Positions 3,709 through 47,329 of a stretch of 64,000 nt of DNA are shown here, piece by piece; positions within the stretch are counted from its first letter, which is position 1, and every line of letters starts with the position of its first letter. The translations under genes and the position numbers were made by a program. A model generated the notes under the pieces. The model searched no databases. It saw nothing but the letters and a program-made list of their open reading frames with translations, and had not been told where the DNA came from. The stretch lies in the NCBI RefSeq assembly GCF_053078305.1, contig NZ_CP166879.1, one strand, 5' to 3'.

Positions 3709-4173
3709 TCAATGGTTTTCTTCTGTCTCTTGGGTGAGGGTTTCCCAGTCGGCAGGAGGATGTCCTCTTTTTAACATTTTGCTGAATACGGTATAGGCAT
3801 CTGTTTTTTTACCGTAGGTGCGAAGAGTGTTTTCATCGTTCATCCATCCCAGAATGATGACTTTCTCTTTTTCACTATAACGAAAGAAGAGACGATAACG
3901 ACCAGCCCCAAATTTTACCCATGACCAGTCTTTATTTTTCCCTGAGCCTAACGACTTGCCATGACGGAATGCCGGTGATGATGGATTGACCGTGATATGC
4001 TCCTCAATCACTTTGTGAACTGCTGCCAATAACTTTGTGGCGGCATTTCTCTAATAATTTTCAGGATCTTTTCCCTTTAATGCCTCGACTTCGGCAACTA
4101 AAGCATCGTAGGTTTCCTGAAAACAGGGATGAGCATATAGCGCCCAACCATTAACCCTTTGTGGAAAATCCAT
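3709..4173 (-). pseudogene. yhaV: yhaV toxin gene interrupted by in-frame TAG at codon 41 (approx. 4051..4053)
   Basis: ATG at 4171..4173 overlaps prlF stop (TAATG); frame reads MDFPQRVNGWALYAHPCFQETYDALVAEVEALKGKDPENY then TAG; same frame continues into ORF-track ORF 3709..4029, which starts at TTG. Confidence 0.75.
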
Positions 4174-4508
4174 TATTCGTCGTCGCCAATCTCATCATCA
4201 ATGTTGACGTCCATGCCAGCGACAAGTTTCTTTCCTTGTTGAATGTCGAATGGACGAGTTTTTTGCGGGTTGTTCTGGATATCTGCATCCAGAAAACGCA
4301 AAAATGCATTCATAGTATGATCCTCCTGTTCATCTCCCAGTCGGCACATAAATACTTGCCCACCAGGCAGAATTTCGTAATGAATGTTGTCCAGGCCTGG
4401 CTTCAGTTTTAAGGCCTCACGCACTGGCGCGGGGATAGTTGTTTGTCCGCGTATCGTGACCTTTGATTCAGTGGTCAGTACAGCGTGAGAGCGAGCATTA
4501 GCGGGCAT
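4173..4508 (-). CDS. prlF: Antitoxin PrlF (SohA), 111 aa, intact
   Basis: ORF track 4173..4649; start at MPANARSHAVLTTESKVTIRG; AbrB-type swapped-hairpin N-terminus and acidic C-terminus. Confidence 0.85.
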   Translation of the reverse strand: MPANARSHAVLTTESKVTIRGQTTIPAPVREALKLKPGLDNIHYEILPGGQVFMCRLGDEQEDHTMNAFLRFLDADIQNNPQKTRPFDIQQGKKLVAGMDVNIDDEIGDDE

Positions 4509-4597
4509 TAGGCACTGTACTTTTACAGCCTGTTTTCTGCTCAAATTATAAGCTTCAGCAAAGTAATGCAAATGCATTATTAATGGACGTGGGGGTT

Positions 4598-4640
4598 TTA
4601 AACAATAAAAACATGGCACTAAGGCCATGTTTTGCGAGGG
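4598..4640 (-). terminator. Intrinsic terminator downstream of garD
   Basis: Perfect inverted repeat aacatggc/gccatgtt with 6-nt loop, followed on the minus strand by a T-rich run (tttattgttt). Confidence 0.5.
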
Positions 4641-4655
4641 ACGTTCCAAAAGAAA

Positions 4656-6227
4656 TCAGGTCACCGGTGCCGGGTTAAACACCGCCAGCTGGTTATGCAG
4701 TCCCCATTGATCCGAGAAGGTTTTCTTCTTCCCGCTGGCGACGTCGAGAATAAAGTGGAACAACTTCCAGCCCACCTCTTCAATGGTTTCTTCGCCGGTG
4801 GCGATAGTGCCCGCGTTAATGTCCATTAAATCAAACCAGCGGTTCGCCAGCTCGGTGCGGGTCGCCATTTTAATGACGGGTACCGCCATCAGGCCGTACG
4901 GCGTACCACGACCGGTCGTAAACACTTGCACGGTGATACCCGAAGCCACCTGTTGCGTGCCACAGACAAAATCGCTGGCTGGCGTCGCGGCGTAAATTAA
5001 TCCGCGTTTAGTCGGGCGTTGACCGGGCGACAGCACTTCAACAATTGCACTTTTACCCGATTTAGCAATGGAGCCGAGTGCCTTCTCTACCACGTTTGCC
5101 AGACCGCCTTTCTTGTTGCCCGGCGAAGGGTTGGCGCTGCGGTCGGTTTTTCCCATATTGAGATAGTTATCGTACCACTCCATCTCCTCCAGCAGCCGTT
5201 TGCCGACCTCTTCGTTCACTGCGCGTGGTGTCAGCAGATGGATCGCGTCACGCACTTCCGTGACTTCTGAGAACATCACCGTTGCGCCGCAGCGCACCAG
5301 TAGATCAGACGCATACCCAACCGCCGGGTTTGCCGTTACGCCAGAAAAGGCATCGCTGCCACCGCACTGCATGCCGACAACCAGTTCTGAAGCCGGACAG
5401 GTTTCTCGCTGACGTTGATTCAGTTTTTGTAGATGGCGTTCGGCGACCTGCAAAATATCCTCGACCATGGACTGAAAACCGACATGCTTTTCATCCTGCA
5501 AACTGACAATGCTGGCGCTTTCTACTGGAATAGCTTGCACATCATCCGTTCCAGTCAGCAGGCGCTCAGGCTGCAACTTTTCACAACCCAGGCCAATCAC
5601 CATTACTTCGCCGCCAAAGTTAGGGTTCAGCGAAATATTGTGAATGGTACGAATAGGTACAACTGCCGCCGGTGCGTTAATCGCCACGCCACAACCGTAC
5701 AAATGATTCAGCCCCACCACGCCATCGACGTTCGGGTATTTCGGTAGCAGATCGCGTTCAATGATTTTTACTACATAGTCCACCACGCCTGCCACACAGT
5801 GGACGCTGGTGGTGATGCCGAGCAGGTTTTTGGTGCCCACGCTGCCATCGGCATTGCGATAGCCCTCAAAGGTGTATCCTTCCAGCGGCGGTAAGGGTTC
5901 CGGGACTTTGGTTGCCAGTGGCAGCGTGTGTAACGGCGGCGCTTCCGGTAGTACAACCATTGACTCGTCGATCCAGCTTCCGCGTGGGATTGCGCGCACG
6001 GCGTAACCAATCACTTCGCCATAACGAATAATTTCACCATTAGCCGGAATGTCCAGCAATGCGACTTTATGCCCCTGGGGAATATGTTCAATTAATTCCA
6101 GCCCATCCGGAAAACGCGTTCCTGCTTTCAGGCCATTATCATTAACAATAATTGCCACATTATCTGTGTCGTGAACTTTTATATAAAACGCAGTTGGCGT
6201 TTCTTGTCTGATTTCGATGTTGGCCAT
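4656..6227 (-). CDS. garD: Galactarate dehydratase
   Basis: ORF track 523 aa; synteny divergent from garPLRK. Confidence 0.9.
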
Positions 6228-6601
6228 TGTGCAATATTCTCCAGCCAGGGGTTATTAAAATGAGGACCTGGTCTCATTTAAAAATAAATGACTTCATTGG
6301 GTGAAATAAGAATGTCAGGAGTTTAAACGCAGAAATGTGATCAATGTCAATCATTTCAGGGATTGCAATGCCGCCCGGCAAGGTAAAGCGCAAATCTGTG
6401 CTTTAGCGCGCAACCTTATGTGCATATGCTCAAAATAATATTTAAATAGTATTAATTAAATTAGCATTTGCACAATGATTATTATTCTCGCGCTGCTTAT
6501 ACTAATTCCCGAGTTCATTGTCGTTACGGCATAAATGAAACTCATAAATAACACCTTCCCCATAATAATAAAAATCAGCATAAGTACCCGAGGTAAATAA
6601 A
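6228..6601. promoter_or_regulatory. AT-rich divergent promoter region garD / garPLRK
   Basis: 374-bp AT-rich spacer between divergent operons; specific sites not resolved. Confidence 0.45.
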
Positions 6602-45422: not shown

Positions 45423-45506
45423 AACCGCCCACGAAAAAGAGAAAAAGGGTATACTCACGCACCCTTTTCAGGGGCAATGTCGAAATTTTATCATTCAGGA
45501 GGGCCG

Positions 45507-46643
45507 ATGAGCCACTTAGACAACGGTTTCCGTTCACTGACACTACAACGTTTTCCGGCGACGGATGACGTTAACCCGCTACAGGCGTGGGAAGCGGCGG
45601 ATGAATATTTGCTGCAACAGTTGGACGACACAGAAATCCGCGGCCCGGTGTTAATCCTGAATGATGCTTTTGGTGCGTTAAGCTGTGTGCTGGCGGAACA
45701 TAAGCCGTACAGCATTGGCGACTCATACATCAGCGAACTGGCGACGCGCGAGAATTTACGCCTTAACGGGATTGATGAATCGAGCGTGAAGTTTCTCGAC
45801 AGCACCGCCGACTACCCGCAACAGCCGGGCGTGGTGCTGATCAAAGTACCGAAAACATTGGCATTGCTGGAACAACAACTGCGTGCGCTGCGCAAAGTGG
45901 TCACGCCACAAACACGTATTATTGCCGGTGCCAAAGCCCGTGACATCCACACTTCCACGCTGGAACTATTCGAAAAAGTGCTCGGCCCGACCACCACCAC
46001 GCTGGCATGGAAGAAAGCGCGCCTGATTAACTGCACTTTCAATGAACCACCGCTGGCCGATGCGCCGCAGACCGTTAGCTGGAAGCTGGAAGGTACTGAC
46101 TGGACTATCCACAACCATGCGAATGTCTTCTCCCGCACCGGGCTGGATATCGGCGCGCGCTTCTTTATGCAACATCTGCCAGAGAATCTCGAAGGGGAGA
46201 TTGTCGATCTCGGTTGCGGTAATGGCGTTATTGGTCTGACGCTGCTTGATAAAAACCCGCAGGCGAAAGTGGTGTTTGTCGATGAATCGCCGATGGCGGT
46301 TGCTTCCAGCCGTTTGAACGTTGAAACCAACATGCCAGAGGCGTTGGATCGCTGCGAATTTATGATCAACAACGCGCTCTCCGGCGTGGAGCCTTTCCGC
46401 TTTAATGCTGTGCTCTGCAACCCGCCGTTTCATCAGCAACATGCGCTGACCGATAACGTCGCCTGGGAGATGTTCCACCACGCCCGCCGCTGCCTGAAAA
46501 TCAACGGCGAACTGTATATCGTTGCCAACCGTCACCTGGATTACTTCCATAAACTGAAGAAGATTTTCGGCAACTGCACCACTATTGCGACGAATAATAA
46601 ATTTGTGGTGCTGAAAGCAGTGAAGCTGGGACGTCGTCGGTAA
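45507..46643 (+). CDS. rlmG: 23S rRNA m2G1835 methyltransferase
   Basis: ORF track 45477..46643; start at [16 protein letters not shown] (378 aa). Confidence 0.88.
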
Positions 46644-46649
46644 GATTAG

Positions 46650-46760
46650 CAGCTACCTGCCGGATAAGGCGTAAACGCCTTATCCGGCATACGTTCTGCA
46701 CGTTACCCCCATGTCGGATAAGACGCGGCAAGCGTCGCATCCGGCAATGTCTGCCCAGTT
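46650..46760. repeat. REP elements (inverted pair) directly 3' of rlmG
   Basis: gccggataaggcgtaaacgccttatccggc ... gtcggataagacgcggcaagcgtcgcatccggca. Confidence 0.8.
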
Positions 46761-46829
46761 CTGGAATCGCGCTCCATAAAACAAAAAATCCCTGTCACCA
46801 TCCTCTACATTCTCTTGTTTAGCGTTGTT

Positions 46830-46916
46830 CAACGTTTATGCTACATACGAGAAGGTTTGACGCATAAAGAATACGATTTCTTTACCGCTGTTCATCGTAC
46901 TAAGGGGAAAAAATGA
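46830..46916 (+). pseudogene. higB: 3' remnant of toxin gene higB (last ~25 codons only)
   Basis: Frame ending in TGA that overlaps the higA ATG (ATGA) reads ...QRLCYIREGLTHKEYDFFTAVHRTKGKK*; no upstream start or N-terminal toxin sequence, only REP; the rlmG-higA gap is too short for a 104-aa gene; coordinates approximate. Confidence 0.6.
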
Positions 46917-47329
46917 TTACGATTGCCGACATCTTGCAAGCAGGAGAAAAGCTAACTGCTGTGGCACCTTTTCTGGCGGGTATTCAGAACGAGGAACAAT
47001 ACATCCAGGCGCTGGAACTGGTAGATCATCTGCTGCTCAACGATCCTGAAAACCCCTTACTGGATCTGGTGTGTGCCAAAATAACCGCGTGGGAAGAATC
47101 AGCGCCCGAATTTGCGGAATTTAATGCCATGGCTCAAGCCATGCCTGGCGGTATAGCCGTGATTCGTACCCTTATGGATCAATATGGTTTAACCCTTTCC
47201 GATCTGCCGGAAATTGGCAGTAAATCTATGGTGTCACGCGTTTTGAGCGGGAAGAGGAAATTAACGCTGGAACACGCTAAAAAATTGGCAACGCGATTCG
47301 GCATTTCTCCCGCCTTGTTTATTGATTAA
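46913..47329 (+). CDS. higA: Antitoxin HigA (138 aa), intact
   Basis: ORF track 138 aa; C-terminal Xre-type HTH. Confidence 0.88.
   Translation: MITIADILQAGEKLTAVAPFLAGIQNEEQYIQALELVDHLLLNDPENPLLDLVCAKITAWEESAPEFAEFNAMAQAMPGGIAVIRTLMDQYGLTLSDLPEIGSKSMVSRVLSGKRKLTLEHAKKLATRFGISPALFID

What the first reader, a model, noticed from the sequence alone, without database searches (positions are those of the whole stretch)
3709..47329. Pattern: both type II TA modules in the window have lost the toxin but kept the antitoxin
Two unrelated TA pairs ~43 kb apart are inactivated on the toxin side by different mechanisms (nonsense mutation in yhaV; deletion in higB), while both antitoxin genes remain full length. 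Independent toxin loss with antitoxin retention suggests selection against toxin activity in this lineage, or retention of the antitoxins for their DNA-binding roles.
Basis: inference. Interest (0 to 1): 0.5.

Follow-up and report, generated by a model that had tools for sequence, protein, structure and literature searches.

The report
Two decayed toxin genes, antitoxins kept
Both toxin–antitoxin pairs in this E. coli window have a broken toxin gene and an intact antitoxin gene, but each break is an old variant that occurs separately in many E. coli strains and follows the already-known toxin-first route of decay.

Summary
yhaV (3709-4173, minus strand) has CAG->TAG at codon 41. higB has lost 325 bp, leaving 25 codons at 46840-46916. 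prlF (111 aa) and higA (138 aa) are full length.

Neither lesion is private to this strain, and neither is a sequencing error. Among 5,426 complete E. coli genomes:
- The exact higB deletion junction occurs in 1,340 (25%).
- The yhaV TAG occurs in about 176 (3%), including BL21(DE3) and O145:H28.
- Only about 2 genomes carry both, against about 43 expected if they assorted freely.

BL21 has the TAG with an intact higBA. PapRG-06-5 has the reverse. So this evidence gives no sign of a lineage-wide drive against toxins. The window simply combines two standing alleles.

Toxin-first loss is the expected and published order of toxin-antitoxin (TA) decay. The orphan higA at rlmG-fadH is already reported for CFT073 and NRG857c.

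One nuance survives. The deletion also removed the higBA promoter-like site and both operator-like palindromes. Even so, higA in deletion-bearing genomes still looks selectively constrained: 15 of 15 sequences (the window plus 14 genomes) are intact, with 11 nonsynonymous to 18 synonymous changes (omega about 0.19). That gives modest support to retention for some function other than autoregulation. Overall the finding is ordinary and already known.

The parts
3709..4173 (-). yhaV pseudogene (type II RNase toxin). The frame is full length but has TAG at codon 41 (window 4053-4051).
   Evidence: Pfam Toxin_YhaV E 5e-53 when codon 41 is read as Q. RefSeq annotates the same allele as 'internal stop'.
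4173..4508 (-). prlF antitoxin, intact at 111 aa. It overlaps the yhaV start by 1 nt. Its protein is identical to WP_001300560.1, the PrlF carried by the other TAG genomes.
   Evidence: NCBIfam NF007429 at 168 bits against a cut-off of 125. It is invariant across 7 TAG-bearing sequences.
46839..46840 (+). Junction of the 325-bp deletion. The deleted segment held the sigma-70-like higBA promoter site, two 25-nt palindrome-containing operator-like repeats and higB codons 1-79. Microhomology at the junction is 1 nt.
   Evidence: The exact junction is present in 1,340 of 5,426 complete E. coli genomes.
46840..46916 (+). higB remnant: the last 25 codons plus the stop. The window haplotype carries 3 substitutions here (46850, 46855, 46857).
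   Evidence: Six sites in the remnant vary among the 15 deletion-bearing sequences and none among 4 intact alleles.
46913..47329 (+). higA antitoxin, intact at 138 aa with a C-terminal HTH. It is now an orphan. The consensus scan finds no sigma-70-like promoter site between the rlmG stop and its start.
   Evidence: It is intact in all 15 deletion-bearing sequences examined, with omega about 0.19.
46644..46839 (+). rlmG-higB spacer retained upstream of the junction. By direct reading it contains REP-type palindromes. It is the only sequence left between the co-oriented rlmG and higA.

Best explanation
These are two unrelated chromosomal type II TA modules of E. coli (prlF-yhaV and higBA), each at the ordinary first stage of decay.

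Why the toxin goes first (inferred from established TA biology): while a toxin is active, a cell that loses the antitoxin is poisoned, whereas a cell that loses the toxin is unharmed. The first lesion that can persist therefore falls in the toxin, and the antitoxin is left as an orphan.

What is shown here:
- Each lesion most likely arose once, long ago: the yhaV Q41 amber codon, and a 325-bp deletion taking the higBA promoter, operators and three quarters of higB.
- Each now circulates as a common allele in the species, carried in different strain backgrounds.
- The window's strain holds both alleles, a rare combination.
- This evidence shows no strain-specific or coordinated process.

What is shown only by sequence statistics: the orphan antitoxins have not drifted freely. 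higA in deletion-bearing genomes changes about five times more slowly at amino-acid-changing sites than at silent sites, and prlF is invariant next to a decaying yhaV. This points to a residual benefit, such as neutralising related incoming toxins or regulation elsewhere. The nature of that benefit is inferred, not shown.
For: Lesions are real and shared; RefSeq pseudogene flags.

Population frequencies in 5,426 complete genomes:
- Junction 1,340.
- TAG 170 with a 33-mer, about 176 with a 55-mer.
- The deleted 325-bp segment is present in 2,848. The locus is therefore about 52% full, 25% higB-deleted and 23% neither.

Independent segregation. The concatenated query gave 1,514 records and 1,518 places, which implies about 2 genomes with both. 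GF4-3 is confirmed as one of them.

Single origin of the deletion: the junction is identical, ungapped and has only 1 nt of microhomology across hosts including O111:H-, O26 and Nissle 1917.

Continued decay of the toxins: a second stop (W10*) in the yhaV of BL21, 510016 and VL7S7. Six variable sites in the 73-nt higB remnant among the 15 deletion-bearing sequences, against none among 4 intact alleles.

No general genome decay: 46 of the other 47 genes from kbaZ to fadH are intact.

Antitoxin constraint: higA is intact in all 15 deletion-bearing sequences, with 11 N to 18 S changes, omega 0.19, and binomial P = 1e-5 against neutrality. prlF has 0 variable sites in 336 nt across 7 TAG-bearing sequences, while the adjacent yhaV pseudogene has 14 in 465 nt.

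Literature: TA decay by nonsense mutations and deletions, and inactive toxin mutants (PMC7167474, PMC2654758, both citing Mine et al. 2009 on ccdO157). Orphan higA at fadH-rlmG in CFT073 and NRG857c (PMC7232551). Abundant orphan antitoxins across 950 E. coli genomes (PMC10790755).
Against: - The source genome is not in the collection. The best match is 99.5% over 24 kb. Its other TA loci could not be inventoried, so a genome-wide toxin bias in this strain cannot be excluded.
- The count of about 2 co-occurrences and the expected 43 ignore clonal sampling and phylogeny.
- The omega estimate comes from 15 sequences. It counts polymorphic sites rather than events on a tree.
- Recombination with intact alleles could import variation that selection had already filtered. 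Such recombination is visible in the yhaV of O145 and O169.
- The zero synonymous variation in prlF also fits a recent spread of that haplotype.
- No expression data were examined for either orphan antitoxin.
Confidence: 0.8

Rival explanations
1. Lineage-specific selection against toxin activity. Under this view the ecology of the window's lineage penalises YhaV and HigB activity, and both toxins were removed for that reason.
For: Both toxins are among only 3 broken genes of 49 in the region. The double-lesion genotype is rare, so it could in principle mark a special lineage.
Against: Neither lesion originated in this lineage. Both are shared with hundreds of genomes from different backgrounds. 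Each is found with the other toxin intact. Co-occurrence is far below the independent expectation (about 2 against about 43). If shared selection acted on both toxins, one would expect positive association, not depletion. The toxin-first asymmetry needs no such selection.
Confidence: 0.07
2. The orphan antitoxins have been domesticated. They are kept because they do something useful without their toxin. Possibilities are neutralising HigB- or YhaV-family toxins arriving on plasmids or phages (anti-addiction), or acting as transcription factors at other promoters. This adds to the decay explanation rather than excluding it.
For: - higA in deletion-bearing genomes has omega 0.19 with P = 1e-5 against neutrality, and is intact in all 15 sequences. 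The adjacent remnant varies at 0.08 per site, against 0.035 per site at higA nonsynonymous sites.
- The Nissle 1917 higA differs from BL21 higA at 6 sites, all synonymous.
- prlF is invariant in 7 TAG-bearing sequences.
- HigB-family homologues occur on 1,056 plasmid records, 77 of them from Escherichia. YhaV-family homologues occur on 328.
- The anti-addiction concept is established for ccd (PMC2654758).
Against: - The deletion removed the higBA promoter-like site and both operator-like repeats. No sigma-70-like site remains upstream of higA, so expression is unproven.
- The true plasmid HigB homologues are at most about 71% identical, and 1,045 of 1,056 records are below 60%. Neutralisation of non-cognate toxins is generally rare (abstract of PMC12301738).
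- About 23% of genomes have neither the higB segment nor the deletion junction. At least one of them lacks higA altogether, so higA is dispensable.
- The remnant-versus-nonsynonymous contrast is not significant on its own (Fisher P = 0.10).
- Recombination could mimic constraint.
Confidence: 0.3
3. The lesions are sequencing or assembly artefacts in the source genome.
For: None found.
Against: The identical TAG haplotype is present in about 170-176 independently sequenced complete genomes, and the identical junction in 1,340.
Confidence: 0.01

Closest known systems
E. coli prlF-yhaV (sohA-yhaV) type II TA module; the yhaV 'internal stop' allele of E. coli B/BL21(DE3)
   Same: Same locus between garD and agaR, with the same gene order and 1-nt overlap. 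The PrlF protein (WP_001300560.1) and the Q41 amber codon are identical to those of BL21(DE3), KL53, O145:H28 and others.
   Different: The window's copy has three private substitutions in the pseudogene (positions 69, 91 and 267). It lacks the second stop (W10*) seen in BL21.
E. coli K-12 higBA (ygjN-ygjM) module, and the orphan higA at the rlmG-fadH intergenic region described for CFT073 and NRG857c (PMC7232551)
   Same: Same locus. It has the same 325-bp deletion junction as Nissle 1917, O111:H- 11128, O26 and 1,340 genomes in all. higA is intact.
   Different: The window carries the rarer junction haplotype, found exactly in 25 genomes. It has 3 extra substitutions in the remnant, and HigA carries A3T and T31I relative to the common protein.
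Decay of the chromosomal ccdO157 TA system in E. coli (Mine et al. 2009, as cited in PMC2654758 and PMC7167474)
   Same: A chromosomal TA islet that is polymorphic within the species and degenerates through nonsense mutations and deletions.
   Different: A different TA family. I could not read the primary paper, so the comparison rests on how the two reviews describe it.

Membership tests
PrlF/YhaV type II TA module | Antitoxin of the PrlF (AbrB/SpoVT-like) family | tested here: met
   NCBIfam NF007429 equivalog, 168 bits against a cut-off of 125, residues 1-111.
PrlF/YhaV type II TA module | Adjacent downstream gene of the Toxin_YhaV family with an intact reading frame | tested here: not met
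   Family homology is clear (PF11663, E 5e-53, with codon 41 read as Q). However, the frame has TAG at codon 41. The locus is the module's remnant, not a working module.
PrlF/YhaV type II TA module | Conserved chromosomal position (garD-prlF-yhaV-agaR) and overlapping operon structure | tested here: met
   Collinear with K-12, BL21 and PapRG-06-5. The 1-nt overlap is retained.
HigB/HigA type II TA module (E. coli K-12 ygjN-ygjM type) | HigA antitoxin with a C-terminal HTH, orthologous to K-12 HigA | tested here: met
   138 aa with 2 amino-acid differences from the common HigA. Pfam HTH_3 at residues 84-135. The TIGR02607 match is below its cut-off.
HigB/HigA type II TA module (E. coli K-12 ygjN-ygjM type) | Upstream higB toxin gene, 104 codons | tested here: not met
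   Only the last 25 codons remain. Codons 1-79 are deleted.
HigB/HigA type II TA module (E. coli K-12 ygjN-ygjM type) | Own promoter with palindromic operator repeats upstream of higB | tested here: not met
   In the intact allele they lie at L003 763-822, inside the deleted 741-1065 segment. No sigma-70-like site is found in window 46500-47400. Their function as operators is inferred from sequence only.
Orphan (solo) antitoxin under selection | Antitoxin ORF kept intact and evolving under purifying selection after toxin loss | tested here: inconclusive
   higA: intact in all 15 sequences, omega about 0.19, P = 1e-5. prlF: 0 of 336 sites variable in 7 sequences. The samples are small, no tree was used, and recombination was not excluded.
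Orphan (solo) antitoxin under selection | The antitoxin is expressed and has a measurable activity without its toxin | not testable with these tools
   This needs transcript or protein data and genetics in a higB-deleted or yhaV-amber strain.

The most novel reading that the evidence does not exclude
The orphan higA lacks its promoter-like site, both operator-like repeats and its toxin, yet it is present in a quarter of complete E. coli genomes and still evolves under purifying selection. It may therefore be a domesticated gene, transcribed by read-through from rlmG. Its job could be immunity against incoming HigB-family toxins on plasmids or phages, or regulation of unrelated promoters. The invariant prlF beside a decaying yhaV could be a second example.
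Probability: 0.25. Interest if true: 0.4.

Novelty: already known. Interest (0 to 1): 0.15.

Why it matters
For this window it matters little. Both pseudogenes are routinely annotated alleles, the orphan higA at this locus has been published, and toxin-first decay is a standard idea. The useful outcome is a caution. Two co-located pseudogenes of the same functional class can look like a lineage-level pattern when they are really unrelated species-wide polymorphisms that happen to sit in one genome. A possible follow-up concerns the species, not this strain. The rlmG-fadH locus exists in three common states: full higBA, higB deleted, and neither. That makes it a convenient natural series for asking whether orphan antitoxins are kept for a function.

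Tried and rejected
- Identifying the source strain: the best complete-genome match is only 99.5% over 24 kb, and SNP density against PapRG-06-5, BL21 and GF4-3 shows no close relative. I considered Shigella because no close E. coli match exists. I consider it unlikely, because the mapped part of the window (to about 49.5 kb) is collinear with E. coli with no extra insertion and 46 of 47 non-toxin genes are intact.
- KL53 higB status: my coordinate guess missed the locus and I did not repeat it.
- GF4-3: the first two fetches missed yhaV because of an inserted sugar-utilisation cluster between garD and prlF and a fimbrial cluster between exuR and exuT. It was found.
- NCBIfam has no model that hits the YhaV fragments or the HigB remnant. 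Pfam was used instead.
- A literature search for yhaV + BL21 + pseudogene returned nothing. The primary ccdO157 decay paper is not held.
- Anti-addiction idea: the near-identical plasmid hits for HigB and YhaV are chromosome-sized records, except one 354-kb E. coli plasmid carrying prlF-yhaV. The other plasmid homologues are at most about 71% (HigB) and 66% (YhaV) identical, and most are below 60%. The idea is therefore neither supported nor excluded.
- Re-initiation product of yhaV (the 106-aa TTG ORF at 3709-4029): rejected as a functional toxin. It lacks the first 48 residues of a Pfam domain that spans residues 12-150.
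Full report
WHAT IS THERE

The window is a core E. coli chromosomal segment running kbaZ-agaR-yhaV-prlF-garD ... rlmG-(higB)-higA-fadH-ygjK. It is collinear with PapRG-06-5 over the mapped part and matches the gene order annotated in BL21(DE3) and K-12.

At the left end, the minus-strand sequence and its translation show prlF (4173-4508) as an intact 111-codon gene. It matches the NCBIfam PrlF equivalog at 168 bits against a cut-off of 125. It overlaps by one base a 465-nt yhaV frame (3709-4173). That frame is full length except for TAG at codon 41 (window 4053-4051), where intact alleles read CAG. With that codon read as Q, the frame is a clear Toxin_YhaV family member (E 5e-53, residues 12-150). 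A stop at residue 40 therefore removes nearly the whole domain.

At the right end, higA (46913-47329) is an intact 138-codon gene with a C-terminal helix-turn-helix. Of higB, only the last 25 codons remain (46840-46916).

Alignment with an intact allele places a clean 325-bp deletion at 46839|46840 with 1 nt of microhomology. In the intact allele, the deleted stretch holds three things:
- a good sigma-70-like site (TTGCCA, 16-nt spacer, TG-TATCAT; 10 of 12 matches);
- two 25-nt direct repeats, each with a CCGTTGCCA/TGTCAACGG palindrome, which are presumably the HigA operators (inferred from sequence only);
- higB codons 1-79.

The consensus scan finds no promoter-like site between the rlmG stop and higA in the window.

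IS IT MORE THAN CHANCE, AND ARE THESE THE ONLY TA MODULES?

I mapped 48 annotated genes from kbaZ to fadH onto the window. Besides higB, only yhaV (nonsense) and yhaC (a 1-bp frameshift) are disrupted. The chance that both toxins fall among 3 broken genes of 49 is 47/18424 = 0.0026 (my calculation). Toxin genes are therefore over-represented among the pseudogenes here. The window also shows no general genome decay.

RefSeq annotation of the syntenic region in three strains names no other TA pair. Rfam finds no type I TA RNA. The 'toxin hit, antitoxin spared' asymmetry rests on two modules and has no power on its own.

THE LESIONS ARE OLD, COMMON AND UNLINKED

The following counts are among 5,426 complete E. 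coli genomes:
- A 70-nt probe across the deletion junction, with an E-value limit that excludes half-matches, finds 1,340 genomes (25%). All matches are ungapped. Hosts include O111:H-, O26 and Nissle 1917.
- A 33-nt probe centred on the TAG can only seed if the T is present. It finds 170 genomes. These include the B/BL21 laboratory family, O145:H28 and O169:H41.
- The 325-bp segment that the window lacks is present in 2,848 genomes. The rlmG-fadH locus therefore exists in three common states: full higBA about 52%, higB-deleted about 25%, and neither about 23%.
- PapRG-04-4 is an example of the empty state. There the REP element upstream of higB is fused to the REP downstream of higA.

The two lesions segregate independently:
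- BL21(DE3) and O145:H28 RM12761 have the yhaV stop with intact higBA.
- PapRG-06-5 has intact yhaV with the higB deletion.
- PapRG-04-4 has the yhaV stop and no higBA.

A concatenated probe (55-nt TAG plus 70-nt junction) returned 1,514 records and 1,518 places. Combined (1,340 records, 1,342 places), this implies about 176 TAG genomes, of which about 2 also carry the junction. Independent assortment would give about 43. One of the two is GF4-3, a guinea-fowl isolate.

No genome in the collection is closer than about 99.5% to the window. The source lineage itself could not be examined. What can be said is that it carries a rare combination of two standing alleles.

HOW IT MOST LIKELY CAME ABOUT

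Each lesion most probably arose once. The deletion junction is identical, ungapped and has only 1 nt of microhomology across distant backgrounds. The TAG sits on a distinctive prlF-yhaV haplotype. That haplotype differs from the K-12 type by 3 amino-acid changes in PrlF and by 5 amino-acid changes plus the stop in YhaV.

After inactivation, the toxin remnants kept decaying:
- The yhaV of BL21, 510016 and VL7S7 has acquired a second stop, W10*.
- The 73-nt higB remnant has 6 variable sites among the 15 deletion-bearing sequences and none among 4 intact alleles.

Why the toxin goes first is explained by established TA biology rather than by anything shown here. Loss of the antitoxin is harmful while the toxin works, so only toxin-first lesions persist. 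[quoted passage not shown] 2009 on ccdO157).

The orphan higA at fadH-rlmG has been reported for CFT073 and NRG857c (PMC7232551). A survey of 950 E. coli genomes found orphan antitoxins abundant (PMC10790755).

WHAT OF THE ANTITOXINS?

I compared the window with 14 other deletion-bearing genomes of varied origin:
- higA is full length in all 15 sequences.
- The commonest protein (WP_000560266.1) is identical to that of strains with intact higB.
- Polymorphism is 11 nonsynonymous to 18 synonymous changes. This gives omega about 0.19, with binomial P about 1e-5 against the neutral 316:98 site ratio.
- The Nissle 1917 higA differs from BL21 higA at 6 sites, all silent.
- The adjacent remnant varies at 0.08 per site, against 0.035 at higA nonsynonymous sites. 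That contrast alone is not significant (Fisher P = 0.10).
- prlF is invariant over 336 nt in 7 TAG-bearing sequences, while the yhaV pseudogene beside it has 14 variable sites.

Several caveats apply:
- The samples are small and no tree was used.
- Part of the yhaV variation in O145 and O169 is plainly imported from the intact haplotype by recombination.
- The absence even of silent changes in prlF also fits a recent spread of that haplotype.
- higA has lost its promoter-like site and operator-like repeats, so any retained role cannot be autoregulation. Its expression, presumably by read-through from rlmG across REP elements, is unproven.
- About 23% of genomes have neither the higB segment nor the junction, and at least one of them lacks higA altogether.
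- HigB- and YhaV-family toxins do occur on plasmids (1,056 and 328 records). Apart from chromosome-sized records and one large E. coli plasmid carrying prlF-yhaV, they are at most about 71% and 66% identical, and most are below 60%. An 'immunity against incoming toxins' role is possible but untested.

COMPARISON AND VERDICT

The loci are the E. coli prlF-yhaV and K-12-type higBA modules by position, gene order and family matches. Neither is a working TA module here, because the toxin criterion fails in both. For higBA the promoter and operator criterion fails as well.

- The claim of independent toxin loss is correct.
- The inference of selection 'in this lineage' is not supported. Both alleles predate the lineage, circulate separately and are negatively associated.
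- Retention of the antitoxins for a function has modest statistical support for higA, but not in the form of binding its own operator.

Everything essential is already known or routinely annotated, so the finding rates low in interest. The only lead worth noting is species-wide: an apparently constrained, promoter-less orphan higA in a quarter of complete E. coli genomes.

Noticed in passing
window 11633-12821 (minus strand): yhaC carries a 1-bp frameshift, giving 11 in-frame stops when read in the reference frame. It is the only other broken gene between kbaZ and fadH. RefSeq also flags yhaC as frameshifted in BL21(DE3) and GF4-3, so this too may be a shared polymorphism.
   Followed up: partly
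window 49575-50150 (plus strand): Six tandem copies of a roughly 80-nt element between fadH and ygjK match Rfam naRNA4 (RF02564), each at or just above the gathering score. This looks like a REP/BIME-type repeat array.
   Followed up: no
window 46644-47373; L008 2860-3030; L003 700-1600: The rlmG-fadH intergenic locus has three common states in E. coli: full higBA about 52%, higB-deleted about 25%, and neither about 23%. The empty allele (PapRG-04-4) joins the REP upstream of higB to the REP downstream of higA. The roughly 0.9-kb higBA islet is therefore flanked by REPs. It was either inserted between them or excised by recombination between them.
   Followed up: partly
L005 46525-46989; L025 and L026 547-1011: The yhaV pseudogene of BL21(DE3), 510016 and VL7S7 has a second nonsense codon (W10*) in addition to Q41*. 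This shows stepwise decay after the first hit. The window's copy lacks it.
   Followed up: yes
window 4173-4508 compared with L017 45003-45338: PrlF on the TAG haplotype differs from K-12 PrlF by three amino-acid changes (Q39L, S41N, N88D) and no silent change. The numbers are too small to separate relaxed constraint, co-evolution with the toxin, and adaptation after toxin loss.
   Followed up: partly
L009 29094-34190; L010 and L027 (GF4-3): GF4-3 is one of about 2 complete genomes with both lesions. It carries a CS1-type fimbrial cluster between exuR and exuT, and an extra sugar-utilisation cluster (PTS/chb-like genes, a second agaR-like repressor) between garD and prlF. Both are absent from the window.
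   Followed up: no
hits H55 and H57 (strains 23CRST031 and 23CRST027): An IS1A-family element lies within or next to the higBA locus in these strains. This may be a third, independent way of disrupting the module.
   Followed up: no
window 11437-11554: A short stretch between rnpB and yhaC does not align with PapRG-06-5. The 10-12 kb bin also has the highest SNP density against two of the three genomes compared, which suggests a local recombination or variable segment.
   Followed up: no
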